Origin: an uncultured Bacteroidales bacterium
GTDB lineage: Bacteria > Bacteroidota > Bacteroidia > Bacteroidales > Paludibacteraceae
Assembly (NCBI GenBank): GCA_946187695.1
Contig: CAMHSB010000006.1
Coordinates: 4,675-68,674 of the forward strand
Length of the DNA stretch: 64,000 bases
Reading direction: 5' to 3'
Under the pieces are notes generated by a model. The model worked only from the letters and a program-made list of their open reading frames with translations. It searched no databases and had not been told where the DNA came from. A program made the translations under genes and the position numbers. Every line of letters begins with the position of its first letter. The stretch's first letter is position 1. Below, in pieces: positions 1 to 38,463 of this stretch.

Positions 1-340
1 GATAATGATCAAGAATTTCTGCCTCTTTAGCTGCATTTAATACAGAATGATGCTCTATGCTAGATACCAGTACTTCTCTACCACTAAAAATAATATTACG
101 TAATACCCAGTTGTTACTTTCAGTTCCTCCAGAAGTAAAATAGATTTCTTCTGGTAACGCCCCTATACATTTAGCAATTGTTTCACGCGCCTTTGCAAGA
201 GCGGCTTTAGGAGCACGGGCAAAAGAGTATGGTTGTGACGCATTGCCATACTCAGATTGCATATAAGGCAGCATAGCTTGCAGGGCAGCATCACTTAACC
301 TTGTAGTAGCAGCATTATCAGCATATATCATCTTATTCAT
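1..340 (-). CDS. Cysteine desulfurase (class V aminotransferase, NifS/IscS/DndA-like), N-terminal ~113 codons; continues past the window edge
   Basis: Own translation from ATG at 340-338: MNKMIYADNAATTRLSDAALQAMLPYMQSEYGNASQPYSFARAPKAALAKARETIAKCIGALPEEIYFTSGGTESNNWVLRN...VSSIEHHSVLNA. FTSGGTESNN and IEHxSV are hallmark NifS/IscS motifs. Its ATG overlaps the TGA of the upstream ORF (TGATG). Confidence 0.8.
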   Translation of the reverse strand, partial: MNKMIYADNAATTRLSDAALQAMLPYMQSEYGNASQPYSFARAPKAALAKARETIAKCIGALPEEIYFTSGGTESNNWVLRNIIFSGREVLVSSIEHHSVLNAAKEAEILDHY

Positions 341-543
341 CAAATGAATAATTTACATCCTTCTGACTTAAATTCTTCTATCTTAGCGTAGATATCTTCA
401 ACATCACAACCTAAATATGAAGCCAAGCAATCTATGCAGTAGTAGTTTTCTATATCTTCCCCAAGCAGTTTTTTATTAATACCGATGGTATTCTTGTCGA
501 GATTCTTCTTCCCGCAAGATATGCATTCTTTAGAGTTCTTCAT
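340..543 (-). CDS. Small Cys-rich zinc-ribbon-like protein (67 aa from internal Met MKNSKE; the ORF track gives 85 aa from 597)
   Basis: CISCGKK...YCIDCLASYLGC...EGC pattern (CxxC...CxxC). The internal start leaves only a 14-nt overlap with the brxL-like stop; the stop codon is coupled to the cysteine desulfurase ATG. Confidence 0.5.
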   Translation of the reverse strand: MKNSKECISCGKKNLDKNTIGINKKLLGEDIENYYCIDCLASYLGCDVEDIYAKIEEFKSEGCKLFI

Positions 544-1972
544 GAATATCTCGAATTGAAAACGCCGGCATATTTTTGCCTCGATATTGTTCATCAATTA
601 TTCCCATCTGGCGCAGGATGATTTGACGCATCTTAACCGCTGGACGCAGACAATATTGTTGGAATTCGCGCACGTTGATATCTTCCTCAGAACGTACGTG
701 GGGGAACAGAAGTTTTAAATATGCTGTGGCTATACGTTTAACCGCCTCTGTATTACGTGTGTCTGCATCTGATGGATACTCTACAATCCTATCTACAATA
801 GCACGATAAGAAGCATCATCACGAAGCAAGTGAAGGATAGTTGTAAAGTACTCCGAATTAAGTGCCCAGCCGGAGATTTTGAGACCTTCATTCATACGAG
901 GAATATCCCATCCCTTGATGAAACCGTGAATACGATCCATTAAAGCACTCGTTCTAAAGATAAGAGGTAGTGAGTCAAACATATTTTGGAATTCATCCAT
1001 CTTATCTTGATCGATATTACCAAGCATTACAAAACCAGCATCAGCAACATCATTTTTGTCTCCTATTTTGACAGTACCTTGCTCCATATAACCTTGTAAT
1101 GTTTGAGTCATTTCGGCAGGATTGTCAAATTCAACCTTTTGAATTTCATCAAAAGCAATATAGTCATGGAAGAAGACAAGACCATCTTCTCTACGTCCTA
1201 AGTCGTAGAACAATTTAGCACGTGTCATCTTTCCTGCTGATAGATATCCATATCGACTGATATTTCCGAATATATAAGATTTACCAGTTCCTTTAGGAGC
1301 CAATTCAATTAAATTGAGACGTTTTTCTACGAAAGGTAGAACTCGTTGAATCATGGATAGTTTCTCGTGCTCGTCTTTATAGCCGGAGGCGTTATAGTCC
1401 ATGGCGCCAAGAATAACATCAATCCATTCATGAATATCAAATTCCTTTCGAATGTTTTTGTAATAGTCCAAGTCTATTTCGTAAGGGCAGAAATTTTGGA
1501 AACTGAGTAGTTTTATTTTTCCTTTCTGTTTCAAAACATCATCAGGATATCGATAGCCGAGTTCTACTATACCCCATGTCTCTTTTGCTTTAATCAATTC
1601 ATCTTGACACATATCCCATACCCTTGACTCAATGATGGTATCTTTATTTGACAACCCAAAATCAGGTAAAGAGAAGGTCACTTCTTGATTCTTAATGTCA
1701 ATATCTACAGAGATACGAGTAAGAATCTTTACATGTTCATTTTCTACTACTATACGGTTCTTTACCGCTGTCCACTCTGCTTTTGAGGGTATATATGTGT
1801 GGACAAAATCGGTAATCTCTTTAATATCGAATTTACCATCTTCATCTTCAAACATTTTTAATAGCCAATCACGTAAAAATGATGGTAAACTTAGTGACTT
1901 AAAAAAGTTACTTTCTTTGAGGTCTTTATAAACTACCATCTCCTCAAAGCAATTTCTCAATTTCTTCTCCAT
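530..1972 (-). CDS. brxL: BrxL-like AAA+ ATPase (BREX Lon-like protein family, short 480-aa form)
   Basis: The N-terminus (VVYKDL...LPSFLRDWLLKMF) resembles the BrxL N-domain. Walker A LAPKGTGKSY and Walker B YIAFDEIQ are present. Lies directly downstream of pglZ. Confidence 0.65.
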   Translation of the reverse strand: MEKKLRNCFEEMVVYKDLKESNFFKSLSLPSFLRDWLLKMFEDEDGKFDIKEITDFVHTYIPSKAEWTAVKNRIVVENEHVKILTRISVDIDIKNQEVTFSLPDFGLSNKDTIIESRVWDMCQDELIKAKETWGIVELGYRYPDDVLKQKGKIKLLSFQNFCPYEIDLDYYKNIRKEFDIHEWIDVILGAMDYNASGYKDEHEKLSMIQRVLPFVEKRLNLIELAPKGTGKSYIFGNISRYGYLSAGKMTRAKLFYDLGRREDGLVFFHDYIAFDEIQKVEFDNPAEMTQTLQGYMEQGTVKIGDKNDVADAGFVMLGNIDQDKMDEFQNMFDSLPLIFRTSALMDRIHGFIKGWDIPRMNEGLKISGWALNSEYFTTILHLLRDDASYRAIVDRIVEYPSDADTRNTEAVKRIATAYLKLLFPHVRSEEDINVREFQQYCLRPAVKMRQIILRQMGIIDEQYRGKNMPAFSIRDIHEEL

Positions 1973-1978: not shown

Positions 1979-4261
1979 CTAAAAGAATTTACGTTCGTTA
2001 ATACCTTCCTTCTTGACTTCAAATGTCAAATTTTGGGCGATAATACTATTATTTACATAGACATCCATCGTGTGCATTCCTGCTTTTTTAACATCAGGCA
2101 TTTCAACTGTATAGTAATACTTATTCTCAGTTTTGTGAGCTTCGTAGTACTTGCCTTCTACTAAAACTTTAACATCTTCGAAATCTTCCGATATATAAAT
2201 GCGTACTACCGCATTTTTCTTAAAGCTTGCTGTTACAATCGTGGATTGAGAATCAATCATGCATTTTAGGGATGCAGACTGACGAGTAATCTCAATAATT
2301 GGAACAATAACTTCCTCTAATGTTGCTCCTCCGTGAACCTCGACATTAGCTTTGCGACCACCACGGAATCGATCGTAGTTTGCTAAACACCAGAAATCAT
2401 TTTCTTCTGTTGCCTGTTCCGGTTTTTCTGAAATGTCGGATTTGGGGCAGCAACGACCGGAGTGTTGTCCCTTTTCGCTAACTTCCCACTTGTTTTCGTG
2501 CTCATTTATCACAGCAAGGCGACTAGCACCATGATCCGAGATTAGGTATATTCTTCTATATTGACCCGACAGTAAATCGCTTTCCACGTGTTTGAGTAAC
2601 GTTTGTATCTCGGATAGTTCAGAATATAAATGGATAGGAAGCTTTTCTGTCTCGTAATTGTATGACATCACGCCATTATGCTTTATCTCATCTATAGCCT
2701 TTATATCACGTACCGGAGTGTTTGATAAATTAAATTCGCCAACAAATTCCTTATTCTTACTTGTAATAGATGGTAAATTACATAGACCATACTTGATATT
2801 ACCAACAAGTCCTAATTCATATAGTTTCTCTTGAATATACCCGAGATATTCAACGCCCATAGCGTCAGTAAAATATACAAGAGCATTTTCTTTTGATAAC
2901 TTAGATACAATCGAGGCGCGAGGAACTAAATATTTATTGTATTCTCGTTTTATAGCCTGTTCGCTCACAATCTCCTTCATTTCATCTGAGATATAATTTG
3001 CAATCTTACAATATTTATACATCTCAAAATAATGAGTAAAGATATCCTCTTTGAATCTAAACTTTTTAAGGTATGCCAATAGATCTGGTGAAACATCAGT
3101 TAATAGAGCCTGTACTTTATCTATTGTATAAATATCTCTGTATTTTGCAATAACCGAAAGCAACATGCGTTTCTCGCTCCAAGTGTAATCTGTTAAGTAA
3201 CCTAATGCCTTTTCGTTCTTCCCACTGACAATTTTACAAAATTCACTCGCAGCACCTTCCTCAGCTACATTCTTGAGAATATTTCTTCGTTCTAAATATA
3301 AGTTCCTAAAATGCTTATTAGTCGTATCAAAGTCTAATATAAAATTGTAGAAATTTTGAATAAAATTCTCATATCTGTCTGTTTTGCCGAGAACGTACGA
3401 TAGATATTCGTTATTCTTGACTCCACATACCTTTAACGAGACGAAATGTGCCCACTTTTTATTTGGAGAGTAGGAAGAGTATTGATGGAAACAATTAGCT
3501 AAATTAGGTATTCCGGCATATTCGGACACAAGAAAATCATCCCAGTTAGAGCGCTTAATGAGCGTATTAGCTAAATATTCCCATTGTTCAGATGTTCCCC
3601 ATTGTTCTTCTATACCACTAAGTGCAGAATATATTCCAACTATACTATCAAAACTAGAGTTAAGTTCTCTAATAGGGATGAGGGATAATGGGAAATCTTT
3701 TTTTGTTTTAGAAGTTACAACATTACATTCCATATCAGCAGATTGATCGTAGTATTCCACCATCTTATCAAGACCATCAGAATATACGGTACAGGTGTTT
3801 TTTAGTTTTTTTGATATGAATAATAATGTTGTTATGGGATGATTTGTGTCGGAAGAAACGATTAACACCCTGTTGGCGGCTGATATACGCGGGTCGCTAA
3901 ACTTGAGATAATCTGCACATTGTACTGTTACTAATATCAATTTCCCTTGAGCTTCCAAGGAGATAAAATTCTTTAAAAAGCGTTTAGTCTCTTTGGCACC
4001 CTTTAGTTTAAGAGCCACACTAATCCCGGTCAAGAACGTTGTTCCCGATAATAATGACACGTCATTGAGCAACTTTGGTATGTCGGGAAGGTTATCCTTG
4101 ATGGCATATTTGTGGCTGCCAACAAAACGATTCTTTCCAACATGATAGTGGGTCTTAAACTCAGATAAATCTTTCGCCGAAGGTAAGTCCACTATTATTG
4201 GACTTTGAAATTCGGACGATAGGTATTTATCGACTTTTTTATATGCTTCTGCTATTGTCAT
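1979..4261 (-). CDS. pglZ: PglZ-domain (alkaline-phosphatase fold) protein of BREX
   Basis: 760 aa. YFTDAMGVEYLGY and RIYLISDHGASRL motifs are typical of the PglZ domain. Sits between brxC-like and brxL-like genes. Confidence 0.8.
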   Translation of the reverse strand: MTIAEAYKKVDKYLSSEFQSPIIVDLPSAKDLSEFKTHYHVGKNRFVGSHKYAIKDNLPDIPKLLNDVSLLSGTTFLTGISVALKLKGAKETKRFLKNFISLEAQGKLILVTVQCADYLKFSDPRISAANRVLIVSSDTNHPITTLLFISKKLKNTCTVYSDGLDKMVEYYDQSADMECNVVTSKTKKDFPLSLIPIRELNSSFDSIVGIYSALSGIEEQWGTSEQWEYLANTLIKRSNWDDFLVSEYAGIPNLANCFHQYSSYSPNKKWAHFVSLKVCGVKNNEYLSYVLGKTDRYENFIQNFYNFILDFDTTNKHFRNLYLERRNILKNVAEEGAASEFCKIVSGKNEKALGYLTDYTWSEKRMLLSVIAKYRDIYTIDKVQALLTDVSPDLLAYLKKFRFKEDIFTHYFEMYKYCKIANYISDEMKEIVSEQAIKREYNKYLVPRASIVSKLSKENALVYFTDAMGVEYLGYIQEKLYELGLVGNIKYGLCNLPSITSKNKEFVGEFNLSNTPVRDIKAIDEIKHNGVMSYNYETEKLPIHLYSELSEIQTLLKHVESDLLSGQYRRIYLISDHGASRLAVINEHENKWEVSEKGQHSGRCCPKSDISEKPEQATEENDFWCLANYDRFRGGRKANVEVHGGATLEEVIVPIIEITRQSASLKCMIDSQSTIVTASFKKNAVVRIYISEDFEDVKVLVEGKYYEAHKTENKYYYTVEMPDVKKAGMHTMDVYVNNSIIAQNLTFEVKKEGINERKFF

Positions 4262-4262: not shown

Positions 4263-7200
4263 TTACTTTGAACGTATTATTTCAACACCTACTCGGGCAT
4301 TGGTTTTGATGAGTTTTTTCAAATATTGTTTAGCCTCATCCGGATTCATAGTATCAATCTTGGCGAAAGCTTTATTGTAGCCGTCTTTCATATACTTATC
4401 TCTGAATAACTCGTCTAACTTATTCGAGAGTGAAGTTGACTGACACCAGTCATATACTTCTGCATACAAATGCTCAGCTAAATAATTCTTAATCAAGTCT
4501 ATGTCATCCAGTAGAACGATTCGATCTCTAATAATATATTTTTTGAACGCTTCATCCCGAGCATTCGCATCTTTTAGTACATTCCAGAATGCAAAAGCTT
4601 TGAAGTAAGAGAGAGCCTTCTTGGTTGTAGAACTATCCGGATTAGATGCGTTTATGCACGCGAAATATTGCTTGTTATCGCTCCATTCTTCTTCTGGCAG
4701 CATTATTTGTAAAGGGACTTTATATTTCTCAGACCATGCAGAAGGTGTATCTGTACCTGTATTTTCTTTCCATAGGTTTCGTAGCAAGATAGAATCAAGC
4801 TGTTGAAGATATTCTTTGATAATGGCAGAAACGCAATTCCTGTAATCCGATTCATCCATCGTGAAACAGTTGGTCGGAATCTTTCCAAATATACTATCTT
4901 GGTCGTTATCAGACAAACCTGATAATAAATCTGCACATGATTTCTTGAAGTATTCTGATTGATTCGCATACAATCTAAGGAATTCGTAGCCTTGATTTTG
5001 AATCTCTTGTAAGAATGCTTCATTTTGGAGCGTCGTGAGTGCGGTAGATAACTTAGATAGGTAATATAAGCGCTCTAATAAACTATCTATTTGACTTGTA
5101 TAATTTTTGATTACTTGATAAGCCAAATGCATATTACTGCAACGAGATGCCCACAAATTCAATGCGTCTTTATAAGATTTACATGGACTATGGAGAACTT
5201 CAGAGGTGGCTTTTGCTATTTTGTACTCACATATCAACTCCTTTATTTTACTCTCTGCTGTATCTTGCTTCCACACCCAATTGGCTGCATCTGCATCAAA
5301 CTTCTCCCTAAGTACATTGATATATTGACCTCCGTCATTTATATCTGCTGCGATAGATAGAAGTTCCGAATAATAAGCCTTTATGAATAATTCCATGCCT
5401 CGTGTGCAATTTTCTTTCGTTAGCACAAGTGACAATTGATCCATAAGGTCATCATCTGATATGATGATTCTTCCTATTTCCATCGCAATGTCGTTATCAG
5501 ATTTACCGGAGTTATCCTTAACATTATTTGCTAAATTGCAATAATGCTCTAATAACGTACACAATTCTTCCCCTTTAGTTACTCCATCTATCACTTCTAA
5601 TGCATACTTAAGAGTCCACAAAGGAAATGCGAATTCTTTCATCTTGTTACGAATGTATGTGCGTGTATGCTCTACAGACGTACAATATTGGTGCGATATG
5701 TCAAACGCCTTAGATGATGCGTTGAAAAATGCTTTCTCTTCGGGAGTGACTGCGACTATGTATTTCTGACGGTAACGGGAATTTGGCGTGTTATCGAGTT
5801 TGATAACCTCGTCAACCATTTCTTCAAATTTCGTTTCCGTTAATTCTTCGCTTGATATATCATCACTATAAGAGAATGAGCCACTTTTAACGTACTCCTT
5901 CATCAAAAAACCTATCATGAATGCGGAGAAGTTACATGGCATAAATCCATAAGGTTCTGCTTTTAAGAATTCATATATCTCTTGGATTGCTATACGACCA
6001 TTTTTCTCTAAATGCTCATCAACAAAGCGATTGAGTGCTATCTTAATTTTCGAAATATTATAAGATGGTATAGATTCCCAATAAGCGGGCTTCTTCCATA
6101 CAGAGTCTAAAACCACATTCAGCCTGTTGGTGGCATTTCCAGAATTGTACACTCCCTTCAATTCTTCTTGTAACGCACTTTCTACTCCTTGTTTTAATGT
6201 CGTGCATATCCATAAGTTATTATTAACCGAGAATTGATCAAGGCATAGATGGTAGCGTTTAACTGTTATTGTGCGTAGCGCATCAATTATAGACGCAAGG
6301 TTAGGATGATATTCTGTATTTGCTAATTCCTTGCAGGACAGTTCGAATTGACCTTTAGTTATAGCAAGTTTCCAGTCCTTTAGAATGTTATTCGCATAGT
6401 TCGAATAATATTGAGCCTGTTGATTGTCCTTGCCGGTAAATATTGCGGCTTTGGCTTTATATCCGACCCATTCGTCGAATTTAAGCTTTCCTAACACGGT
6501 CTTAGATGTATTGACAAATACAACTATGCTATCTGGATTTTTAGAACGAAATTCAGATATTTTTTGTGTTAACATAGCTGCCTCTTGCTCATCCTTTGCA
6601 AATAATAGAATAAAAGGTATTTTCCCATAAGTTGAATTATCATTATTTGCTTTGGAAGTGATCAACTCAAAATTATCCAAACATGCTTCATATGGTTTGA
6701 ATCTCAATTTGATAGCATCCGTCAACTCGATAAATTCACGCAGGGCACCCTCCGAGATAAGCGAGTTGGTAGTTGTAGATTCAAACTTCTTTTTGGAATC
6801 GTTGATTTTTGTGCTATCTAATTCTGAAGTAAGAATACTATAGACAAACTTATCAGAACCCATTGGTTTTTTATATACGATATTATCTCGAACCAATTTT
6901 TCGGCACATGAAATAGCCTCATTTTCTAAATCAGAGCCTTCAAACGCATTAGAAAGATTCCTTTCGGTCGCCAGGAATATATCTACTGCGTCATTAACCT
7001 CAAGAGACATAGCCTGCATGAGAAGAATCGTTTTTAACACTCTCTCTTCTTCGGATGTCAATTTTTTCGTTGTGCTCAGGCGAGGATAGTTGTCTAGAAT
7101 CATGCGAATATTCTGGGCTAAACTATCTTTTCCTAAGTCATAGAAGAAGCCCCATAGCATATCGATTGTCAAAAGAGGATTCTCGTCATAAGGTCCAAAG

Positions 7201-8450
7201 TTATCAATAAACCAACAGAATCCTTTGTTTTCTCCTCCATTTTCATTTTTAATAAAGTCAAACATACTGCGTTGGTTTGACTCAAAGGAAGTAGAAATGT
7301 GCTTTAACAAACAAGCTGTGTATGGATGTATAGGAAGAACTCCTTGTAGAATATCATCATCTATTTGAGCTATGTTTTTAACTATCTTGCGAGATTCTAC
7401 TGTTCGTTCACATAAATCGGCAATTATTTTTCCCCATTCTTTTTGTAGCACCTCGTCCTTATTTTTTTGCATAGCGGCTCCCATAAGTTTGAATGCCATA
7501 TTCTCAGGAAGTTCGATTCTGCGAGTTGGGCGATTAAAACGTCCTAAAATCTTACTCTTTTGCGTAGGATCTGCTAACAACGCCTCGCTCTTATGGGTGA
7601 CAAGGATGAAACTAAACGGCGTAGTCTCGCTCAGTTCAAGTATCGTTTGGAATCCGGTCTGAGTGTCCAAATTGTTCTTAAAGTATTCTGTGAACTCATC
7701 CCATATAAACACAATAGAATTAAGATTGTTTACATTGATAACTTCTTTTATCCATCCACATAAGGCTTTGTCATCAAGCGTAAACGCTTTAATTTGTTTT
7801 TCATGCGCTACACGGAACACCTTACTCATTAACTCTAATAAAGGAACTCCGGTAAAAGTAGAGAGATTGTGTATGATATCATCAACAGACGCTCCTGCAA
7901 AAAGATTTTTGTAACTACCATTTACATAGACAGCAAAGCTATTTTTGTTTTCTTCGTCTGAAAGATACTTAATGACAGAGTCCTTCATAGAAGAAGAAGC
8001 CATGTTTGTAATTCCTGCCTCTTTAAGCGCATCTTCTATACTCTCTTGTATCGCCAAGAATAAATCGTTATCGCCATGAATTGCTGACGAACCATAGCGA
8101 TGAATGGTAATTACTTTCCCTTGATTCTTTGCACTAAGAAACTTATTAAGAAGGTCGTTATCTAAGCTAAAATTATGAAAATATTCTTTGGTCTCCGCTT
8201 CCGACGCATCCAATAATCGTTTAAGGGTGAGTACAGCATGGGACTTTCCTGTTCCATATGCTCCTTCTACCCAAATGTTTAATTTTTTAGTACGTGTGAT
8301 AACTCCTATAGTATCTTTAAGCAAATCAACAAATGTAGAGTGTGGATAGAATTTCTTCCACAAATCTTCGTCATGCTTAATAACATCAGCGTTTACTGCA
8401 GGAAAGTAATCAGGATCTATTTCAAAAAAATGACGATAACTATTAGCCAT
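4263..8450 (-). CDS. brxC: BrxC/PglY-like large P-loop NTPase (1395 aa)
   Basis: N-terminal Walker A WVEGAYGTGKSHAV, Walker B-like IVFIWDEFTEY, very long helical C-terminal part. Position between the PAPS-reductase gene and pglZ matches BREX type 4 order. Confidence 0.7.
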   Translation of the reverse strand: MANSYRHFFEIDPDYFPAVNADVIKHDEDLWKKFYPHSTFVDLLKDTIGVITRTKKLNIWVEGAYGTGKSHAVLTLKRLLDASEAETKEYFHNFSLDNDLLNKFLSAKNQGKVITIHRYGSSAIHGDNDLFLAIQESIEDALKEAGITNMASSSMKDSVIKYLSDEENKNSFAVYVNGSYKNLFAGASVDDIIHNLSTFTGVPLLELMSKVFRVAHEKQIKAFTLDDKALCGWIKEVINVNNLNSIVFIWDEFTEYFKNNLDTQTGFQTILELSETTPFSFILVTHKSEALLADPTQKSKILGRFNRPTRRIELPENMAFKLMGAAMQKNKDEVLQKEWGKIIADLCERTVESRKIVKNIAQIDDDILQGVLPIHPYTACLLKHISTSFESNQRSMFDFIKNENGGENKGFCWFIDNFGPYDENPLLTIDMLWGFFYDLGKDSLAQNIRMILDNYPRLSTTKKLTSEEERVLKTILLMQAMSLEVNDAVDIFLATERNLSNAFEGSDLENEAISCAEKLVRDNIVYKKPMGSDKFVYSILTSELDSTKINDSKKKFESTTTNSLISEGALREFIELTDAIKLRFKPYEACLDNFELITSKANNDNSTYGKIPFILLFAKDEQEAAMLTQKISEFRSKNPDSIVVFVNTSKTVLGKLKFDEWVGYKAKAAIFTGKDNQQAQYYSNYANNILKDWKLAITKGQFELSCKELANTEYHPNLASIIDALRTITVKRYHLCLDQFSVNNNLWICTTLKQGVESALQEELKGVYNSGNATNRLNVVLDSVWKKPAYWESIPSYNISKIKIALNRFVDEHLEKNGRIAIQEIYEFLKAEPYGFMPCNFSAFMIGFLMKEYVKSGSFSYSDDISSEELTETKFEEMVDEVIKLDNTPNSRYRQKYIVAVTPEEKAFFNASSKAFDISHQYCTSVEHTRTYIRNKMKEFAFPLWTLKYALEVIDGVTKGEELCTLLEHYCNLANNVKDNSGKSDNDIAMEIGRIIISDDDLMDQLSLVLTKENCTRGMELFIKAYYSELLSIAADINDGGQYINVLREKFDADAANWVWKQDTAESKIKELICEYKIAKATSEVLHSPCKSYKDALNLWASRCSNMHLAYQVIKNYTSQIDSLLERLYYLSKLSTALTTLQNEAFLQEIQNQGYEFLRLYANQSEYFKKSCADLLSGLSDNDQDSIFGKIPTNCFTMDESDYRNCVSAIIKEYLQQLDSILLRNLWKENTGTDTPSAWSEKYKVPLQIMLPEEEWSDNKQYFACINASNPDSSTTKKALSYFKAFAFWNVLKDANARDEAFKKYIIRDRIVLLDDIDLIKNYLAEHLYAEVYDWCQSTSLSNKLDELFRDKYMKDGYNKAFAKIDTMNPDEAKQYLKKLIKTNARVGVEIIRSK

Positions 8451-8464: not shown

Positions 8465-10801
8465 TTAAAAGAGGTTAAGTACATCTGTTGAGAATTTATC
8501 ATCTCGTAAGGAAATGTTATCAAGATCGAGAGTAAATGATGACGAAATGAAGTCTGGATATTTAGCGCTGAGGCCATTAATAACGCGCTTCATTATTTCT
8601 GAATCTACGCCAAACATTTGTACCGGGCTAATTCCTTCACTATCAACAGATGTATCCATTAAACGACTTAAAGTGAATTGATAATAGCCACCACAAGCTT
8701 CTGCAAAGCGGTACAAGCTATATAATATAACGAGATCGTCAGGATTCCCCCACGGCATTCTCTGAATCTTATAGTTATTGCGCTCTGCATCTACTATTAA
8801 GCCGAACCCAAGTTCGCCTAAAGGAAGAGCCGATATGCGTTTAATAGAATTCGGAACCGATTTTACAGCACTTGCGCTAACTCCTTCTGTGTTGCCGAGA
8901 ATTTCAGATATATACTGCTGTGATATAGGTTCTCCAAAGTCAAAGTTGCGCACAAACCAACCTACTTGAGCAGAATAACAAAGATTGACATACATAGCAG
9001 CCCATATCTGCTTGTCATCTAGTCCACGCTCACGTAGTAGAGAGGCTAAGATTGTCTCTGTATTGTTACTCAAAAGACCTGCATCTCGCAAGAACTTTTT
9101 GAACGCAGGAAATTCATTATTTCCTAACGTGTACTCCGTGTAGAATCTGCTCTCTAATTTGATAAATTGACTAAACCAATCTAATTTAGGAGCGTGTGTT
9201 GCATAACTGTCAAGTGATGATTTCATATTTCCATTTCCTTTTGATAACCATAATGATTTATAAACGAGACAACCTGTGTCTATGTCAAAACATTGTCCAC
9301 AGCGTATGCAAGAGTCGCTAATATGAAGATGTCCCGCCTCGTCAAATTTCAGATTGCCATGATTGCAATTAGCTTCGCATACTTTACATCCAACGCAATA
9401 ATGACTTTTGCGGAAGACTCGCCTAATCATTTTGACGAATTCTATTCCTAATTTTGATTTATCGTTTTTTACAATAACTTTTAAATATCCATTTTCCATT
9501 GGTAAAACTTCCAAATCAAACTCTGTACCTCTAAACAGAATTTTGTATTTGTCGTCATAATCTGTGACAAGTAGTTTCCCAATTGGCTTTATCCATTGTT
9601 TCCAATTGTTATCGTGATTGTAGAAGGTAATGATCAACTTTCCGTCGTTGGTAGTGGCTTCGTCATAATCTTTTTTCGCTATTGTTAAGTCTCGTCCATT
9701 TTTACGAGCTTTCCATCCTGTATTTTCAAGATAGCTCCTCAGTTTAGCTTCATTACCTTTATCTACCGCATTAAATTCACGAATAATATCATAGTACGGA
9801 TCCGCTTCTGATTTATAACATTGTTGATTCATGTAATCGCTCTTGCGTGCCGACATAGGACACACTAAACAACCGGCACGGCTATTCCCTCTTTTGTATG
9901 CCTTGTTAATAGGAAGACGATTAGAGTATAGATATAAATAAACTTCAGCAGAGTTCCATTCTAGTATAGGGTTGCAACTATACTGACCTCTGTGTTTTGT
10001 GCCGTAAGACACGAAATCATAACCGCTACGACGGAGACTTTCATCGCCTCTAACTCCCACAAATGCCATTTCTCGGAAATTTTCCTTTCCTACAATTTCC
10101 CTTATAGTCAACAACTGTGGAGTTGTCTTATGCACACTACAACACCAGCGAATTGCGGAGGCTGGAGGACCGAATAGTTTCCATGAGTCTGATGGTTTCA
10201 AATGAGATTTCGCCACATAAAATTTAATATTGTAGTCTTCACATCTTTTCTTTGCCATCTCTACTGCTTCATATGTATCGGAGAACTCCATACCTGTATC
10301 TCCAAAGATCACTACAAATTCGTTATGCGGGAGAGCTCTCTGTACTAAATCTAAAGCCACCTCACTATCTTTACCTCCGCTAAAAGATACGTGGAATATA
10401 TCAACTTTATCTTTGTAGGCAAGGAATGTGTTGTATATAAATTTGATGGTATCTTGTACTAATCCATTGAGGACTTCTTTATTTTTATATACCATCATAT
10501 CAATATCCACGAAACGGAGAGGCGCATTATTTTCTTCGGGAGTATCAATAATATTTACTTCTGGAGCTGTATAAAGCGAACCGCCTTTAAGAGAGGCCAC
10601 TAATTTGCCACGATAGTAATATTCATTAGCTTCTGCCCACATATACGGGGCAGAGTCATCTTTAGCATATGACCAATGCTGATTAAAACCAAGAGTGTCC
10701 ATCTCTTGATAATATACTGGACGTGGCTCTTTGCTAAATGCCAACGGAGTAGTATTCAGCAATAACCCTCCTGATTCTTTGTCGTAGGTATATGAGTACA
10801 T
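8465..10801 (-). CDS. brxP: BrxP-like PAPS-reductase/DndC-like PP-loop ATP pyrophosphatase with ferredoxin-type Fe-S Cys motifs
   Basis: PP-loop HVSFSGGKDSEVALD (nt ~10364-10381). RWCCSVHKT and RAGCLVCPM Cys motifs as in the DndC/IbrA family. CVGCKVCEANC...CIRCGQCFDIDTGC (nt ~9257-9394) resembles a 2x[4Fe-4S] ferredoxin signature. Confidence 0.75.
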   Translation of the reverse strand: MYSYTYDKESGGLLLNTTPLAFSKEPRPVYYQEMDTLGFNQHWSYAKDDSAPYMWAEANEYYYRGKLVASLKGGSLYTAPEVNIIDTPEENNAPLRFVDIDMMVYKNKEVLNGLVQDTIKFIYNTFLAYKDKVDIFHVSFSGGKDSEVALDLVQRALPHNEFVVIFGDTGMEFSDTYEAVEMAKKRCEDYNIKFYVAKSHLKPSDSWKLFGPPASAIRWCCSVHKTTPQLLTIREIVGKENFREMAFVGVRGDESLRRSGYDFVSYGTKHRGQYSCNPILEWNSAEVYLYLYSNRLPINKAYKRGNSRAGCLVCPMSARKSDYMNQQCYKSEADPYYDIIREFNAVDKGNEAKLRSYLENTGWKARKNGRDLTIAKKDYDEATTNDGKLIITFYNHDNNWKQWIKPIGKLLVTDYDDKYKILFRGTEFDLEVLPMENGYLKVIVKNDKSKLGIEFVKMIRRVFRKSHYCVGCKVCEANCNHGNLKFDEAGHLHISDSCIRCGQCFDIDTGCLVYKSLWLSKGNGNMKSSLDSYATHAPKLDWFSQFIKLESRFYTEYTLGNNEFPAFKKFLRDAGLLSNNTETILASLLRERGLDDKQIWAAMYVNLCYSAQVGWFVRNFDFGEPISQQYISEILGNTEGVSASAVKSVPNSIKRISALPLGELGFGLIVDAERNNYKIQRMPWGNPDDLVILYSLYRFAEACGGYYQFTLSRLMDTSVDSEGISPVQMFGVDSEIMKRVINGLSAKYPDFISSSFTLDLDNISLRDDKFSTDVLNLF

Positions 10802-10803: not shown

Positions 10804-12639
10804 TTATTTTTTATTCATCTTATTTCTTAATTCCTGCGCTTTAACTAATATTTTCTCTATGTTTTTAAAAGTGCGGAATGCTATATATTTTTTATCGACT
10901 AAAAATTCCAAAGCTTCAGTTTTATTTAGATCGATATCGGACTCTGCAAGAATTTGTGTAATAACACTACTATAGTCATCATAGTGGGATGTTCTTTTTA
11001 TTATTGCTCCGACTACTTTATCTTGATTATATCTTTCATGTGCTAAAGTGAACTTTGCACTACAACTAACGAGATAGGATTCAAGCAGATAAATATTCCA
11101 AGGGTATTGACTGGGAGGGAATGATGTTAGTACCACATCTGAAAAGCTTACATATGAACTTTGTGTAAACTTTTCTATAGTTTCATCTATTGCATTAACA
11201 TCAAACTCTATGGTGTTTTTGTGTACAAATGTATCATAATTAATGCGAAGATAATAGTTGTACGCTATTTCATAACGAATAGAATCAGAACCACATTCTA
11301 AACAGAACGCTTTCAGCTCTGCTAGAGACGTTGTGTCGTGAGTCTTACAAAATGAATCTATTGCTGAATTCGAATCTACAGGATGCTCTATACTGCTAAT
11401 GATATTTCTAATGAAAGAGAATTTATCTTGTAATAAAACATACAAAGAATTTCTAATACCCAACTCTCGAAGAGATATGTTATTGTCCCATACATTGGGA
11501 GTAGTGGCTTTGATAATATCTATTAAATCTGATTTTGTTGCATAACCATACGATAGAATAGTAGAACTTAATTTATTTTCTACCCTCTGCAAGTCCGACT
11601 TGTTTATATCGAAATTGTCTATGTGAAAACATAATTCTCTGCCCCCAGAGATTATTTTATTCGGCTTTTGTTCTATGCTCCGCATGATCACTTCGCGTGG
11701 TAAGTGATGAAGTTCATTACATAATTCTGTAAAAGAAATAATTGTGCCATACTCCTTAATGAAAGTTTCTACTGTCTCAGCAATATTTACGGAACACTCT
11801 GCTGAGTTCGTTATCATATTGTCTTTATAGAACCATCCACTATCGCCATACTTTTTCAAGTATTCACGTAACATTTCTGCATCAAACATCTTTTGATTAG
11901 AGAACATTTGGTTGAAATGTTCGTATAGTACAGAGTAATAGATAAAGGTATTGCCAGACTCGAAACATTCGGCAATATAGCTCAGCAATTCTATTTTACT
12001 ATCTTCGTCTAAAATTTGAGAAGGTAGATACAGCATGTCTTTATATATCACTCCATAGGCAGACAGTTCGTCATCACTAATTTCTCCCAAAGGTTCTCCA
12101 ATAATATCAAGATACAAATGTGATAAACGCTTTCTTTCATTATGTGAAGAAAAACGGAAACCGTGTCTAAATTTTGTAGTAAGTACTTCCTGAAGATGCG
12201 GATTAATCTTGAACTCCGTTTTTATTCCATCATTTTCCATATCTTGTTTTGTGGGGAATAAGACAGGAGTGCCTTCTCGGTCTAATGATGGCGCATAGGG
12301 ATACATTACTTCCGCTTCTGCAAGAATTGTTTCATATTCCTCGGGACTATCTAAACTCATATTCGCAACATCTGCTATAACCTTACTTGGACTATGTAAT
12401 CCATGAAGTCCGTCAGTTAACGTATATTTAACAGAAGCAAGTTGCATTGAAATGCCATTTGTGTTTCGATATGTCGGATCTATTGTTAAACCTTTTGATA
12501 TTGCAGCTTGACGCAATCGATTAGACACTTCGATTGTTGCATCATTTTTTGAGATCTTTCCATTACGAATGCGCCAATAAGCATCCACAAGAAGGGATGC
12601 TTCGTACTGATTCCAATTTGCGTTTATGTTTTGTGTCAT
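10804..12639 (-). CDS. Hypothetical 611-aa protein, first gene of the BREX-like operon (start taken at MTQNINANW, downstream of the promoter box)
   Basis: Long ORF with a 2-nt gap to brxP. The N-terminal ~100 aa (WNQYEASLLVDAYWRIRNGKISKNDATIEVSNRLRQAAISKGLTIDPTYRNTNGISMQ) looks like a module I have seen at N-termini of restriction/defence-associated proteins. I recognise no catalytic motif. Confidence 0.5.
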   Translation of the reverse strand: MTQNINANWNQYEASLLVDAYWRIRNGKISKNDATIEVSNRLRQAAISKGLTIDPTYRNTNGISMQLASVKYTLTDGLHGLHSPSKVIADVANMSLDSPEEYETILAEAEVMYPYAPSLDREGTPVLFPTKQDMENDGIKTEFKINPHLQEVLTTKFRHGFRFSSHNERKRLSHLYLDIIGEPLGEISDDELSAYGVIYKDMLYLPSQILDEDSKIELLSYIAECFESGNTFIYYSVLYEHFNQMFSNQKMFDAEMLREYLKKYGDSGWFYKDNMITNSAECSVNIAETVETFIKEYGTIISFTELCNELHHLPREVIMRSIEQKPNKIISGGRELCFHIDNFDINKSDLQRVENKLSSTILSYGYATKSDLIDIIKATTPNVWDNNISLRELGIRNSLYVLLQDKFSFIRNIISSIEHPVDSNSAIDSFCKTHDTTSLAELKAFCLECGSDSIRYEIAYNYYLRINYDTFVHKNTIEFDVNAIDETIEKFTQSSYVSFSDVVLTSFPPSQYPWNIYLLESYLVSCSAKFTLAHERYNQDKVVGAIIKRTSHYDDYSSVITQILAESDIDLNKTEALEFLVDKKYIAFRTFKNIEKILVKAQELRNKMNKK

Positions 12640-12663
12640 TTTGCCAAGTGTCGTGCGTACATA

Positions 12664-12684
12664 GCACGCATGCATCTGCGTGCA
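12664..12684 (-). promoter_or_regulatory. Palindrome (GCACGCA-N6-TGCGTGC) in the 5' UTR of the BREX-like operon; candidate operator or RNA hairpin
   Basis: Perfect 7-bp arms between the -7 box (12700-12707) and the start codon (12639). A second small hairpin (CGTGC-N7-GCACG) follows. The element is GC-rich relative to the island. Confidence 0.35.
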
Positions 12685-12699
12685 CAAAAAAACTGGCTG

Positions 12700-12707
12700 C
12701 AAAGGTA
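12700..12707 (-). promoter_or_regulatory. Bacteroidota -7 promoter box (TACCTTTG) for the BREX-like operon
   Basis: Minus strand reads TCGTACCTTTGCAGCC, matching the TAnnTTTG consensus, ~60 nt upstream of the ATG at 12639. Confidence 0.55.
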
Positions 12708-12812
12708 CGAAAAATTTTTGATATGTGCAAGACATTTTGCCATATTATGTTTATTTTAGGCTAAAAGCAATTGTTTTTTTACTAAAAACTTGTATATCTG
12801 ATTAAAATTTGC

Positions 12813-12848: not shown

Positions 12849-13384
12849 ATGACACCAGAAAGGTTTCTAAATGCATTTGAGGAAAACAAAATGTTTGAGA
12901 AGTCATATTACATGACTCCTTCACGATGGAGTCATGCTATTGGTTCCATACCTGAAGTTCAAGATGAGGCGAAATGGATGCCGCCCGTAAAATATATGAA
13001 TAGTACTAATGATGATATTTCTGACGACATCCGTAATTTACCAAATGATGTTGGCGGAATCTATGTTTTCTTCATCAAGGTCCATCTCTTCCATTTTTGG
13101 AACGATACATAGCATATATAGGAAGAGCTCAATTGACTGATTCACAAACTATACGTAAAAGAGCTAAAGAGTATTATCCAGAAAGTCAGAAAGTTGATGG
13201 CCGAATTAAAATTGTTAAATTATTTGAACATTGGAAAGAGTATTTGTACTTTCAATATTTTCCATGTACGGACAACTCGGTTATCCAAAGATGTGAGGCA
13301 AATCTGATACATGCGATTTTCCCTCCATTTAATGACGATATCGCAGAAAAAATCATATTTCACACCCCAATAAATGCATTTTAA
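12849..13384 (+). pseudogene. GIY-YIG-like nuclease gene split by a -1 frameshift near 13079 (ORFs 12849-13112 and 13097-13384)
   Basis: Frame 1 ends ...NDVGGIYVFFIK. Shifting -1 at ~13079 continues GPSLPFLERYIAYIGRAQ...IRKRAKEYY...CEANLIHAIFPPFN, which restores GIY...YIG...R...E...N order. No slippery heptamer at the junction. Confidence 0.5.
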
Positions 13385-13386: not shown

Positions 13387-14658
13387 ATGGCAACTGCTAT
13401 TAACATACCAGCCATACGTGGTCATGTAGGTGAGATTGTTTATTACACATCTGTTTTTACTTTTCAACAAATTGTTGAGAGAGTCAAAAAAATAGATGAT
13501 GAGTTGCACACGTCTAAATCTTTGCGCGACCAATTGCAACGAAACCTAACGGAAAATTATAAGAGCATCAAAGACTACATTCTGAGTCACGATGATAGGT
13601 TCTTCAATGCGTTAGTTTTAGCTGTTTATGATGGGGAGCCTACGTGGAATCCCATTGAGATATTTTTTAAAGAAAATCCGTATCATTCGATGGGTTTTCT
13701 TCAACTGAATGGAGAAGAAAAGATATTTCCCGTAGATGGGCAGCATCGTGTTGAAGGAATAAAAGCGGCTCTGAAAATTAATCCAGAACTAAAAGATGAG
13801 ACCATTGCTGTTATATTCATTGGTCACCAGAAGTCTGAGCAAGGCATGGAGAAAACAAGACGCATTTTTACCACCTTGAACCGCTATGCTAAACCTGTCA
13901 AATTAGGTGATATCATTGCATTGGATGAAGATGATATAGTTGCCATTACGACACGTGAACTTTTGGAGTCATATCCTTTGTTTATGGGGAAAAAGATTAG
14001 CAATGCAAAAAATAGTAAAGCTATACCAGATTCAGATACCAATGCGTTTACTACTTTAATGTCGTTATACGAAAGTCATTTGACGTTATACAAATATTTC
14101 AAACAGCACCATGACAGAAAGAGTAAACCATATTCATCTACAGAGATAAAAGAGTCTCTAAAATTACGTCCAAATCAGAGTTCACTAAATGCCTTTAAAT
14201 CTTTCGTAATAGATTTTTGGAACATATTCTGCGCGAATTATGATGGCATGCGTGAATTTAAGGATAGTCAAGCAGATAATGCTGCCAGTCCGTATCGAAA
14301 CAAACAAGGAGGATTGATATATTTCCGTCCAATTGGAATAGAGTCACTGATTCACGCACTGCTACTGACGGCTCAACGCACACCAGAAAAACCATTGGCA
14401 AATATAGTGACTGAATATGCTACTTTAAAATACAACTTGGCTGAGACACCATGGAAGGGCGTGTTTTGGAGACAAAATAATCAGACAATGATTATGGGAA
14501 ACAATCCCCTTGCTGTTTTGTTGCTGATGTATATGTATAATCCAGATCTCCTCACAGAAAAAGAAATGGAGCGTTTGAAGAAAAGATATGCGGATGCTCT
14601 ACAACTTGAGAACATAGAAGATGTGGATGCCAAACTAGAAGAGTTAAGAATGGCATAG
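13387..14658 (+). CDS. DGQHR-domain protein (DndB-like, ParB/Srx superfamily)
   Basis: 423 aa with the literal FPVDGQHRVEGIKAAL motif, ALVLAVYDG upstream and IFTTLNRYAKPV downstream, as in the DndB/DGQHR family. Confidence 0.8.
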   Translation: MATAINIPAIRGHVGEIVYYTSVFTFQQIVERVKKIDDELHTSKSLRDQLQRNLTENYKSIKDYILSHDDRFFNALVLAVYDGEPTWNPIEIFFKENPYHSMGFLQLNGEEKIFPVDGQHRVEGIKAALKINPELKDETIAVIFIGHQKSEQGMEKTRRIFTTLNRYAKPVKLGDIIALDEDDIVAITTRELLESYPLFMGKKISNAKNSKAIPDSDTNAFTTLMSLYESHLTLYKYFKQHHDRKSKPYSSTEIKESLKLRPNQSSLNAFKSFVIDFWNIFCANYDGMREFKDSQADNAASPYRNKQGGLIYFRPIGIESLIHALLLTAQRTPEKPLANIVTEYATLKYNLAETPWKGVFWRQNNQTMIMGNNPLAVLLLMYMYNPDLLTEKEMERLKKRYADALQLENIEDVDAKLEELRMA

Positions 14659-16167: not shown

Positions 16168-16238
16168 GCGGTGTTAGCACATCGGTAGTGCATCGGCTTC
16201 CCAAGCCGAGGAGGCGGGTTCGATTCCCGTACACCGCT
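16168..16238 (+). tRNA. tRNA-Gly (anticodon CCC), 71 nt, CCA not encoded
   Basis: Hand-folded cloverleaf. Acceptor GCGGTGT/ACACCGC, D stem GCAC/GTGC, anticodon stem TCGGC/GCCGA with loop TTCCCAA, T stem GCGGG/CCCGT with loop TTCGATT. Confidence 0.85.
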
Positions 16239-16240
16239 CT

Positions 16241-35165: not shown

Positions 35166-35287
35166 AATAAATTACAAATCGGGCGCAAAGGTACTACTTT
35201 TTTTTGACATACGCAAGCCCGCGCGCGATTTTCCTTCTTTTTTTGTAAAAAAAATCACTCCCCCTTGCATATATCAAATTTTTTGTG

Positions 35288-35295
35288 TAATTTTG
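35288..35295 (+). promoter_or_regulatory. -7 promoter box (TAATTTTG) upstream of the DUF2442-like gene
   Basis: TGTGTAATTTTGCAGCG lies 17 nt before the ATG at 35312. Confidence 0.5.
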
Positions 35296-35311
35296 CAGCG
35301 CAAAATGCATT

Positions 35312-35566
35312 ATGAGCAGAATATACATTAAAGAAGCAAAAGACGCGGGTAATTTGTCAGTGGACTTGTTGTTCAGCGATCAAACAACCCGTAGAGTGGA
35401 TATAGGTGACTTCATCCGTCGTCATCCTCATCCGCAGTATAATAAATATCTTGACCCTCAGAAATTCCGTCGTTTTGAAATCGAAAACGGCAACATTGTT
35501 TGGGGCAAGAATTGGGATCTTATTTTCCCGGTTGAGCAACTGTACGCAGGTGTAATTGCCGACTAA
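35312..35566 (+). CDS. DUF2442-like small protein
   Basis: 84 aa. IKEAKDAGNLSVDLLFSDQTTRRVDIGDFI...FRRFEIENGNIVWGKNWDL resembles the DUF2442 pattern. Confidence 0.5.
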   Translation: MSRIYIKEAKDAGNLSVDLLFSDQTTRRVDIGDFIRRHPHPQYNKYLDPQKFRRFEIENGNIVWGKNWDLIFPVEQLYAGVIAD

Positions 35567-35661
35567 CCCCTCGCTGCCACCGACAGCGTAAAAAAGCGGT
35601 GACATATTGAATTTCGCGTTTGCGATTTATTGGACATCTTGAAATGTGAGAAGTTTTATAG

Positions 35662-35719
35662 ATACACCAATAATAAGTCAGCTAGCGTCCATAATATTGG
35701 ACGTGACTTATCGGTGTAT
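35662..35719 (+). other. Long imperfect hairpin (ATACACC..AATAAGTCA..CGTCCA-TAATAT-TGGACG..TGACTTAT..GGTGTAT)
   Basis: Nested complementary arms read directly, between the DUF2442-like and lipoprotein genes. Confidence 0.5.
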
Positions 35720-38443: not shown

Positions 38444-38463
38444 CACCCGAATTTAAGTGGCGG

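What the first reader, a model, noticed from the sequence alone, without database searches (positions are those of the whole stretch)
1..597. Cysteine desulfurase and Zn-ribbon translationally coupled to the BREX-like operon: a sulfur donor for BrxP?
The last two genes are a small CxxC...CxxC protein and a NifS/IscS-type cysteine desulfurase (FTSGGTESNN, IEHHSV). The desulfurase ATG shares a base with the preceding stop codon. Both genes have the AT-rich composition of the island, not of the backbone. In Dnd and Ssp systems a dedicated cysteine desulfurase (DndA/SspA) feeds sulfur to a PAPS-reductase-fold Fe-S protein (DndC/SspD) to make phosphorothioate DNA. The same pairing appears here, which points to a sulfur-based DNA modification as the self-mark of this BREX-like system instead of methylation.
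Basis: inference. Interest (0 to 1): 0.85.

Follow-up and report, generated by a model that had tools for sequence, protein, structure and literature searches.

The report
BREX type 4 operon's own cysteine desulfurase
The last two genes of this phage-defence island are a small cysteine-rich protein and a cysteine desulfurase that most likely supplies sulfur for phosphorothioate marking of the host DNA. This arrangement and this reading were both published in 2026, so the finding is correct but not new.

Summary
On the minus strand, a 67-aa protein with two CxxC pairs (543..340) overlaps the end of brxL. Its TGA shares one base with the ATG of a class-I (NifS/IscS-type) cysteine desulfurase (340..1), of which the window holds only the first 113 codons. 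Both genes have the GC content of the island (33-39%), not of the backbone (53%).

They close a canonical BREX type 4 operon: a 643-aa unknown protein, then brxP, brxC, pglZ and a short brxL. I checked 74 species-representative genomes from many phyla. The small protein follows brxL in 72 of them. The desulfurase follows the small protein in 56, and never occurs without it. The PLP lysine and the catalytic cysteine are invariant in all 57 full-length relatives.

Yuan et al. (Nat Commun 2026; bioRxiv 2024) showed experimentally that BREX-4 makes phosphorothioate DNA in Bacteroidales. [quoted passage not shown]

One nuance comes from my counts. The small protein is the more constant part, and it persists where the desulfurase is absent. 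It is therefore probably not just a helper of the desulfurase.

The parts
1..340 (-). N-terminal 113 codons of a class-I (NifS/IscS/DndA/SspA-type) cysteine desulfurase, cut by the window edge. The ATG is at 340..338.
   Evidence: Translation. Aminotran_5 at 1.7e-22, PADLOC DndA/SspA at about 1e-30, NCBIfam NifS at 1e-30. It is 82% identical to the full-length 368-aa homolog in L002.
340..543 (-). Small 67-aa cysteine-rich protein with two CxxC pairs and a conserved C-terminal EGCKLF. It overlaps the end of brxL by 14 nt and the desulfurase ATG by 1 nt.
   Evidence: It has 547 database homologs, none with a Pfam domain. Conserved cysteines are shown. It is present after brxL in 72 of 74 loci. 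AF2 model has pLDDT 82.
530..1972 (-). brxL, short form (480 aa), with BrxL_N and an ATPase domain but no Lon-protease domain.
   Evidence: Pfam BrxL_N at 1.3e-30 and BrxL_ATPase at 7.3e-105. TIGR02688 scores 405 bits against a cutoff of 329. PADLOC BrxL at 2e-206.
1979..4261 (-). pglZ (brxZ), BREX type 4 variant (760 aa).
   Evidence: NF033445 'BREX-4 PglZ' scores 400 bits against a cutoff of 140. PADLOC PglZ at 2.5e-95.
4263..8450 (-). brxC/pglY ATPase (1395 aa), an SspC-like protein.
   Evidence: PADLOC BrxC at 3.7e-256, and also SspC at 7.5e-19.
8465..10801 (-). brxP (778 aa), with a PAPS-reductase domain, a ferredoxin-like Cys cluster and a C-terminal DUF4007-like region.
   Evidence: PAPS_reduct at 5.3e-29 and weak Fer4 hits. 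PADLOC BrxP at 1.4e-247 and SspD at 1.3e-10. DUF4007 at E=0.005, below threshold.
10804..12735 (-). First gene of the operon, a 643-aa protein of unknown family.
   Evidence: No Pfam or NCBIfam hit. Its C-terminal half is conserved directly upstream of brxP in most related loci.
13387..14658 (+). Divergently transcribed DGQHR-domain (DndB-like) protein. It is a neighbour of the operon, and its membership in the system is uncertain.
   Evidence: Pfam DndB at 2.5e-31. TIGR03187 DGQHR scores 104.5 bits against a cutoff of 58.85. The DndB equivalog scores 85.9 against a cutoff of 328, so that threshold is not met.
16168..16239 (+). tRNA-Gly(CCC) at the jump from island GC to backbone GC. It is a probable integration site (inference).

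Best explanation
The window begins inside the last gene of a horizontally acquired BREX type 4 operon. The gene order is: unknown 643-aa protein, brxP, brxC, pglZ, short brxL, small Cys-rich protein, cysteine desulfurase.

The desulfurase is a PLP-dependent class-I enzyme. It takes sulfur from L-cysteine as an enzyme-bound persulfide. It then passes that sulfur to BrxP, or uses it to build BrxP's Fe-S cluster, or both. BrxP is a PAPS-reductase-fold protein that equals SspD fused to SspB. [quoted passage not shown] This phosphorothioate is the self-mark of the system. PglZ and BrxL form the exclusion arm.

Carrying its own desulfurase makes the island self-sufficient for sulfur supply after transfer. 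The gene is an optional last cistron, because a host desulfurase can substitute.

What is shown here: the gene identities, the overlapping start and stop codons, island-type composition, wide synteny, and conserved catalytic residues in relatives. What is shown by others: BREX-4 makes phosphorothioate DNA in related Bacteroidales. What is inferred: sulfur flows from this desulfurase to BrxP, the genes are translationally coupled, and the host of this window carries phosphorothioate DNA.
For: - Gene identities are established.
- Overlaps: 14-nt and 1-nt overlaps link brxL, the small gene and the desulfurase. The same overlapped layout occurs in relatives.
- Close relatives: in 11 Bacteroidales loci the block runs brxP to desulfurase unchanged, while the genes after the desulfurase differ (NACHT/SLFN, Nmad3/HNH, TetR/DUF6714). 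The desulfurase is therefore the 3' end of the module.
- Distant relatives: in 74 species-representative loci from Bacillota, Bacteroidota, Planctomycetota, Riflebacteria, Anaeroplasma and others, the desulfurase lies on the same strand right after the small gene in 56 (76%).
- Active enzymes: the 57 full-length module desulfurases keep the PLP lysine (SASAHK) and the catalytic cysteine (STGSAC) without exception.
- Co-inheritance: their divergence tracks that of BrxL. Mantel r=0.235 with 3 of 999 permutations reaching it. Identity to the reference correlates with that of BrxL and BrxC at rho 0.50-0.58.
- Ssp-like machinery: BrxP hits SspD and BrxC hits SspC.
- Literature: BREX-4 produces PT dinucleotides, and brxC is required for this. 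brxP plus brxC with a host desulfurase suffice (PMC12914056). [quoted passage not shown]
Against: - Only 113 codons are in the window, so an intact catalytic half is assumed from an 82%-identical relative.
- The dedicated desulfurase is not needed in principle. PT synthesis was reconstituted with BrxP and BrxC using the host SufS. 18 of 74 related loci lack the gene.
- Full-length relatives score below the curated equivalog cutoffs for DndA (305 vs 480 bits) and NifS (410 vs 531). Among solved structures they match generic NifS/IscS enzymes better than SspA (6m4j) or DndA (3vax). Sequence alone therefore does not tie the enzyme to PT systems.
- No experiment has deleted or assayed a BREX-4 desulfurase.
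Confidence: 0.8

Rival explanations
1. The desulfurase serves only to assemble or repair the Fe-S cluster(s) of BrxP (the PAPS-reductase cluster and the ferredoxin-like Cys region). It is not the direct donor of the sulfur atom that ends up in DNA. This overlaps with the main explanation and differs only in the route of the sulfur.
For: BrxP carries a ferredoxin-type Cys cluster, with weak Fer4 hits at residues 463-507. DndA was first characterised as the enzyme that assembles the Fe-S cluster of DndC (You et al. 2007, cited). NifS-type models give the best scores.
Against: In the Dnd and Ssp systems the same desulfurase is regarded as the sulfur source for the modification (text of PMC12914056 and PMC12839542). 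Nothing here separates the two roles.
Confidence: 0.3
2. The desulfurase is a housekeeping or unrelated gene that merely lies next to the BREX island in this genome.
For: By HMM score it looks like a generic NifS-type enzyme and fails the DndA equivalog cutoff.
Against: It has island-type GC (39% against 53%). Its ATG overlaps the preceding stop codon. The same gene sits in the same position in 56 of 74 species from several phyla and in all close relatives, whatever lies downstream. It co-diverges with BrxL.
Confidence: 0.03
3. The small Cys-rich protein is a partner of the desulfurase, for example a persulfide or Fe-S relay between it and BrxP. This is what the first reader implied by pairing the two genes.
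For: The two genes are always adjacent when both are present, and the desulfurase never occurs without the small gene. A cysteine in the C-terminal EGC.LF motif is at least 90% conserved in addition to the four CxxC cysteines.
Against: The small protein is present in 16 loci that have no desulfurase. There it is followed by unrelated genes: AAA_21/OLD ATPases, an Mrr-like nuclease, a resolvase, IS200 and a nucleoside hydrolase. Its gene overlaps brxL, not brxP. The AF2 model is a three-helix bundle, and its only (non-significant) structural neighbours are HTH DNA-binding domains. More likely it is a BrxL-associated or DNA-binding core component, or a regulator as suggested in PMC12839542.
Confidence: 0.15
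4. The sulfur mobilised here goes into a modification other than DNA phosphorothioate, such as a thiolated base or an RNA target.
For: PAPS-reductase/ATP-pyrophosphatase-fold enzymes also make thiolated nucleosides (general knowledge of the fold). The modification was not measured in this organism.
Against: Homologous brxPCZL systems in four Bacteroidales genera yield PT dinucleotides. brxC deletion abolishes them. BrxP and BrxC are homologous to SspD/SspB and SspC.
Confidence: 0.04

Closest known systems
BREX type 4 (brxPCZL) phosphorothioation systems of gut Bacteroidales (Yuan et al., Nat Commun 2026, PMC12914056), and the BREX-4 'sixth component' desulfurase with its small zinc-finger protein (NAR 2026, PMC12839542)
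   Same: The core genes and their order are the same, and BrxL is 78-94% identical to Bacteroidales homologs. A short BrxL is followed by a small Cys protein and a roughly 370-aa desulfurase. The proposed role is also the same: a sulfur donor for BrxP.
   Different: Nothing substantive differs. This is one more instance, in a Paludibacteraceae-like MAG. In my sample of the 80 closest species, the small protein is more constant (97%) than the desulfurase (76%). The paper describes the small protein only as often co-occurring with the desulfurase.
SspABCD phosphorothioation module (SspA desulfurase, SspB DUF4007, SspC ATPase, SspD PAPS-reductase)
   Same: The desulfurase hits PADLOC SspA (1e-119 for full-length relatives). 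BrxC hits SspC at 7.5e-19 and BrxP hits SspD at 1.3e-10. The BrxP C-terminus weakly matches DUF4007. The published HHpred analysis agrees.
   Different: SspD and SspB are fused into one protein, BrxP. The partner genes are PglZ and BrxL rather than SspE or SspFGH. The reported PT motifs differ from the Ssp CCA motif. An extra small Cys protein and a 643-aa protein are present.
DndA-DndC pair of the Dnd system
   Same: A class-I NifS-like desulfurase is encoded next to a PAPS-reductase-fold Fe-S protein. PADLOC DndA matches at 1e-119 to 1e-122.
   Different: TIGR03235 (the DndA equivalog) scores 283-305 bits against a cutoff of 480. BrxP matches DndC only at 2.6e-06. According to PMC12839542 it lacks the DndC-specific Cys dyad. 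There is no DndD or DndE.
Housekeeping NifS/IscS class-I cysteine desulfurases (e.g. Thermotoga maritima NifS-like, PDB 1ecx; E. coli IscS, PDB 1p3w)
   Same: These give the best HMM and PDB scores: NifS TIGR03402 at 382-410 bits, PDB 9wep at 2.5e-83 and 1ecx at 3.6e-78. The PLP-Lys and SxGSAC catalytic loop are the same.
   Different: The score is below the NifS equivalog cutoff of 531 bits. The protein is short (about 370 aa), against about 400 aa for the solved IscS chains. The gene is embedded in a mobile defence operon and has island composition.

Membership tests
BREX type 4 | BrxP: a PAPS-reductase-domain protein in place of the PglX methyltransferase | tested here: met
   PAPS_reduct at 5.3e-29. 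PADLOC BrxP at 1.4e-247 over the full length. None of the ten island ORFs scanned gave a methyltransferase hit.
BREX type 4 | BrxC/PglY ATPase, type-4 PglZ and BrxL adjacent on one strand | tested here: met
   PADLOC BrxC at 3.7e-256. NF033445 'BREX-4 PglZ' scores 400 bits (cutoff 140). TIGR02688 BrxL scores 405 bits (cutoff 329). The genes are contiguous on the minus strand.
BREX type 4 | Phosphorothioate modification of host DNA, and phage exclusion | not testable with these tools
   PT was shown for homologous systems in PMC12914056. It has not been measured for this organism.
Class-I (NifS/IscS-type) cysteine desulfurase | Aminotransferase class-V fold | tested here: met
   Aminotran_5 at 1.7e-22 on the 113-aa fragment, covering profile positions 1-109 of 371.
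Class-I (NifS/IscS-type) cysteine desulfurase | PLP-binding lysine and catalytic cysteine in an SxGSAC loop | tested here: inconclusive
   Both lie outside the window. They are invariant in 57 of 57 syntenic full-length relatives, including one 82% identical over the shared 113 aa.
DndA (NCBIfam TIGR03235 equivalog) | Score at or above the curated equivalog cutoff (480 bits) | tested here: not met
   Full-length relatives score 283-305 bits. The window fragment scores 80 bits.
NifS (NCBIfam TIGR03402 equivalog) | Score at or above the curated equivalog cutoff (530.75 bits) | tested here: not met
   Full-length relatives score 382-410 bits. This is the best-scoring model but it is below the cutoff.
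SspABCD-like PT modification module | SspA-type desulfurase, SspC-type ATPase and SspD-type PAPS-reductase encoded together | tested here: met
   PADLOC SspA at 1.8e-30 for the fragment and about 1e-119 for relatives. SspC at 7.5e-19 on BrxC. SspD at 1.3e-10 on BrxP.
SspABCD-like PT modification module | SspB (DUF4007) domain | tested here: inconclusive
   Pfam DUF4007 at E=0.005 and 16.4 bits (cutoff 27) on BrxP residues 660-775. HHpred support is reported in PMC12914056.
Zinc-ribbon / zinc-finger protein (the small ORF) | Four conserved metal-ligand cysteines in two CxxC knuckles | tested here: met
   C7, C10, C36 and C39 are invariant in 30 close homologs and at least 90% conserved in 76 species.
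Zinc-ribbon / zinc-finger protein (the small ORF) | Match to a described zinc-finger or zinc-ribbon family or fold, and actual metal binding | tested here: not met
   There is no Pfam, NCBIfam or PADLOC hit. The best is zf-4CXXC_R1 at E=0.01, below its cutoff. Foldseek against PDB gives no hit with E<0.6, and the weak hits are HTH domains. The metal (Zn or Fe-S) cannot be determined here.
DndB (the neighbouring gene at 13387-14658) | DGQHR domain, and the DndB equivalog score | tested here: not met
   The DGQHR domain is met (TIGR03187 at 104.5 bits, cutoff 58.85). The DndB equivalog TIGR03233 scores 85.9 bits against a cutoff of 328. It is therefore a DGQHR protein but not DndB proper.

The most novel reading that the evidence does not exclude
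The 63-73-aa cysteine-rich protein, whose gene overlaps the end of short brxL, may be a nearly universal core subunit of this BREX-4 lineage. It is present in 97% of sampled species, including those without a desulfurase. It may work with BrxL or on DNA, as a metal- or Fe-S-containing helix-turn-helix-like factor. In that case the published description of it as an accessory of the desulfurase would be too narrow. The short BrxL plus this protein could be the functional counterpart of the long BrxL that carries a Lon-like domain.
Probability: 0.35. Interest if true: 0.4.

Novelty: already known. Interest (0 to 1): 0.2.

Why it matters
A defence island that carries its own sulfur donor can make phosphorothioate DNA in any host it enters. 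This is relevant because BREX-4 is enriched in gut Bacteroidales and Bacillota, and PT-DNA is sensitive to oxidation. Both points have been published, so this locus adds only one more instance. It also gives a cleaner statistic: the small Cys protein is the constant element and the desulfurase is the optional one. What remains open is biochemical. No one has shown that the BREX-4 desulfurase hands sulfur to BrxP, and the function of the small protein is unknown.

Tried and rejected
- Exact-sequence look-ups of the window's BrxL, PglZ and 643-aa protein found no record. The parent contig is an 82,226-bp NCBI record. It could not be fetched, so the rest of the desulfurase gene was not seen. The small protein matched only a 1.2-kb read assembly that ends at the same place.
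- The search for related loci with BrxP alone found nothing. A 40-sequence BrxL alignment was too diverse to yield search patterns. A 12-sequence alignment worked.
It was repeated with database homologs only.
- Foldseek on the small-protein model gave no significant match. I therefore do not claim it is an HTH or a zinc ribbon.
- A proper phylogeny against DndA, SspA, IscS and NifS reference sequences was not possible, because no reference set was available in the sandbox. HMM and PDB score rankings were used instead. They do not place the enzyme specifically with DndA or SspA.
- No supplementary files of PMC12914056 are held. I could not check whether the '7-gene brx operon' of B. salyersiae includes the desulfurase.
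- I considered that the 16 'small protein only' loci might hide divergent desulfurases. I rejected this, because the ten next-gene ORFs scanned from ten of them are unrelated.
Full report
**What is in the sequence**

The first 15.5 kb of the window is an AT-rich island (36.4% GC). The backbone is 52-54% GC, and a tRNA-Gly(CCC) gene sits at the junction. All the relevant genes run on the minus strand towards coordinate 1:
- a 643-aa protein with no family match (12735..10804)
- BrxP (10801..8465)
- BrxC (8450..4263)
- PglZ (4261..1979)
- a short BrxL of 480 aa (1972..530)
- a 67-aa cysteine-rich protein (543..340)
- an ORF that starts at ATG 340..338 and is still open when the window ends, 113 codons later

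It matches Pfam Aminotran_5 at 1.7e-22, PADLOC DndA and SspA at about 1e-30, and NCBIfam NifS at 1e-30.

The stop codon of the small gene and the ATG of the desulfurase share one base (TGATG). The small gene's ATG lies inside the last codons of brxL, giving a 14-nt overlap. GC content is 39.4% for the desulfurase fragment and 33.3% for the small gene, which are island-like values.

The real start of the small gene is the ATG at 543, not the TTG at 597. 'Zn-ribbon' is a guess, because no family model matches the protein.

**What the operon is**

The upstream genes are a textbook BREX type 4 set:
- BrxP matches PADLOC at 1.4e-247 and has a PAPS-reductase domain and a ferredoxin-like Cys cluster.
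- BrxC matches at 3.7e-256.
- PglZ matches NCBIfam 'BREX-4 system phosphatase PglZ' at 400 bits (cutoff 140).
- BrxL matches TIGR02688 at 405 bits (cutoff 329).

BrxC also hits SspC (7.5e-19) and BrxP hits SspD (1.3e-10). The C-terminus of BrxP matches DUF4007, the SspB domain, at a sub-threshold E of 0.005. The host is probably a Paludibacteraceae-like Bacteroidales MAG.

**Is the desulfurase part of the system?**

BrxL homologs that are 78-94% identical are abundant in Bacteroidales metagenomes. In all eleven neighbourhoods fetched, the block runs 643-aa-like protein, BrxP, BrxC, PglZ, BrxL, a 66-69-aa protein, and an Aminotran_5 protein of 368-372 aa.

The genes after the desulfurase differ between loci: NACHT/SLFN, Nmad3/HNH, or TetR/DUF6714. 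The desulfurase is therefore the last gene of the conserved module.

I then collected 80 species-representative loci through a BrxL alignment. They come from Bacillota, Bacteroidota, Planctomycetota, Desulfobacterota, Synergistota, Cloacimonadota, Riflebacteria, Abditibacteriota and Anaeroplasma. I scored them by tblastn. Of the 74 loci with at least 1.5 kb of sequence after brxL:
- 72 have the small protein directly after brxL.
- 56 have the desulfurase directly after the small protein, on the same strand.
- None has the desulfurase without the small protein.
- 16 have the small protein alone.
- 2 have neither.

I scanned the next gene in ten of the 16 small-protein-only loci. It is unrelated in each: AAA_21/OLD ATPases, an Mrr-like nuclease, a resolvase, IS200, a nucleoside hydrolase and others.

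The 57 full-length module desulfurases all keep the PLP lysine (SASAHK) and the catalytic cysteine (STGSAC). Their divergence tracks that of BrxL: Mantel r=0.235, with 3 of 999 permutations as high, and identity correlations of rho 0.5-0.58 with BrxL and BrxC.

The sample is the best-scoring 80 of at least 579 hits, so it is biased towards relatives of this system.

**What kind of desulfurase it is**

Full-length relatives include one that is 82% identical to the window fragment. They score best against NifS (382-410 bits, cutoff 531), then DndA (283-305, cutoff 480), then IscS (260-287). None reaches an equivalog cutoff.

PADLOC's DndA and SspA models both match at about 1e-119. Among solved structures, generic NifS/IscS enzymes (2.5e-83 to 1e-56) rank above SspA 6m4j (1.6e-53) and DndA 3vax (6e-47).

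The enzyme is thus a short class-I NifS-like desulfurase. Its link to phosphorothioation rests on genomic context, not on sequence signature. I could not build a proper tree against reference DndA, SspA, IscS and NifS sequences.

**The small protein**

It has 547 database homologs, all without a Pfam domain. Across 76 species, C7, C10, C36, C39 and the cysteine in the C-terminal EGC.LF motif are at least 90% conserved. C46 is conserved only among close relatives.

An AlphaFold model (pLDDT 82) has a short hairpin carrying the first CxxC, followed by three helices. The second CxxC sits at the start of helix 2.

Foldseek finds nothing significant. The weak hits (E of 0.66 or higher) are almost all helix-turn-helix DNA-binding domains. 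This fits the published remark that the protein resembles HTH regulators, but it proves nothing.

Because the protein persists without the desulfurase and its gene overlaps brxL, I consider it a core component in its own right rather than a desulfurase helper.

**Comparison with what is known**

Yuan et al. (Nat Commun 2026; bioRxiv June 2024; PMC12914056) reported the following:
- BrxP is effectively an SspD-SspB fusion and BrxC is an SspC homolog.
- Bacteroides salyersiae and other Bacteroidales with brxPCZL carry PT dinucleotides.
- Deleting brxC abolishes the PT dinucleotides.
- brxP plus brxC reconstitute PT in B. thetaiotaomicron using the host SufS.
- brxZ and brxL are not needed for the modification.

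The NAR 2026 survey (PMC12839542) reports a cysteine desulfurase 'not previously associated with BREX' in 255 of 457 type-4 taxa. [quoted passage not shown] It explains the patchy distribution by substitution with housekeeping IscS, NifS or SufS.

My counts agree with this. They add that, within this lineage, the small protein is the more constant element.

**Mechanism and confidence**

The most likely mechanism (confidence 0.8) has three steps:
1. The desulfurase forms a persulfide from cysteine.
2. It delivers the sulfur to BrxP, directly or through Fe-S cluster assembly or both.
3. BrxP, with BrxC, installs phosphorothioate as the self-mark.

The gene is optional because a host enzyme can substitute. 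The steps of sulfur transfer and translational coupling are inferred. PT synthesis by homologous systems has been shown by others. PT in this particular organism is untested.

The adjacency-by-chance rival is effectively excluded by the synteny. A role limited to Fe-S assembly cannot be separated from the main model with the data here.

**Verdict**

The feature is real and was correctly interpreted, but it is already known. Interest is low (0.2). The remaining open questions are the biochemical role of the dedicated desulfurase and the function of the small cysteine-rich protein.

Noticed in passing
window 13387-14658 (+); L026:13617-14837; L037:13384-14556: A DGQHR-domain (DndB-like) protein is transcribed divergently from the BREX-4 operon (TIGR03187 met, DndB equivalog not met). 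Homologs 38-40% identical lie just downstream of the BREX-4 desulfurase in two distant loci (an uncultured Bacteroides and a Lachnospiraceae). This may be a recurrent DndB-like regulator or partner of BREX-4.
   Followed up: partly
window 10804-12735 (-): The first gene of the operon encodes a 643-aa protein with no Pfam, NCBIfam or meaningful PADLOC hit. Its C-terminal half (roughly 300-400 aa) is conserved (20-33% identity) directly upstream of brxP in most of the 80 related loci. It looks like a further conserved component of unknown function.
   Followed up: partly
window 12849-13384 (+): Two short overlapping ORFs (87 and 95 aa) contain 'GGIYVFF' and 'YIAYIGRA'. They look like a frameshifted GIY-YIG-type gene upstream of the DGQHR gene. 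The same split is present in an independent metagenome contig (L013).
   Followed up: no
L014-L093 (region just after brxL in each locus): The small Cys-rich protein follows short brxL in 72 of 74 species, including 16 with no desulfurase. It is therefore more constant than the desulfurase. Five cysteines are at least 90% conserved, and the C-terminal motif is EGC.LF.
   Followed up: yes
window 35200-39000: A second AT-rich islet (33-38% GC) sits in the 53% GC backbone. It encodes a lipoprotein-like 319-aa protein and a 407-aa protein with an N-terminal membrane segment. The C-terminus of the 407-aa protein has motifs that look agmatine-deiminase/PAD-like (GGLLNCTTW).
   Followed up: no
window 16168-16239 (+): tRNA-Gly(CCC) lies exactly where GC jumps from island to backbone values. 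It is a probable integration site for the BREX-4 island.
   Followed up: no
L031:11648-12769 (minus strand of the locus): In one related locus, a more distant desulfurase (36% identity) lies convergently after the small gene, instead of the usual co-directional module desulfurase. This may be an independent capture or a replacement.
   Followed up: no
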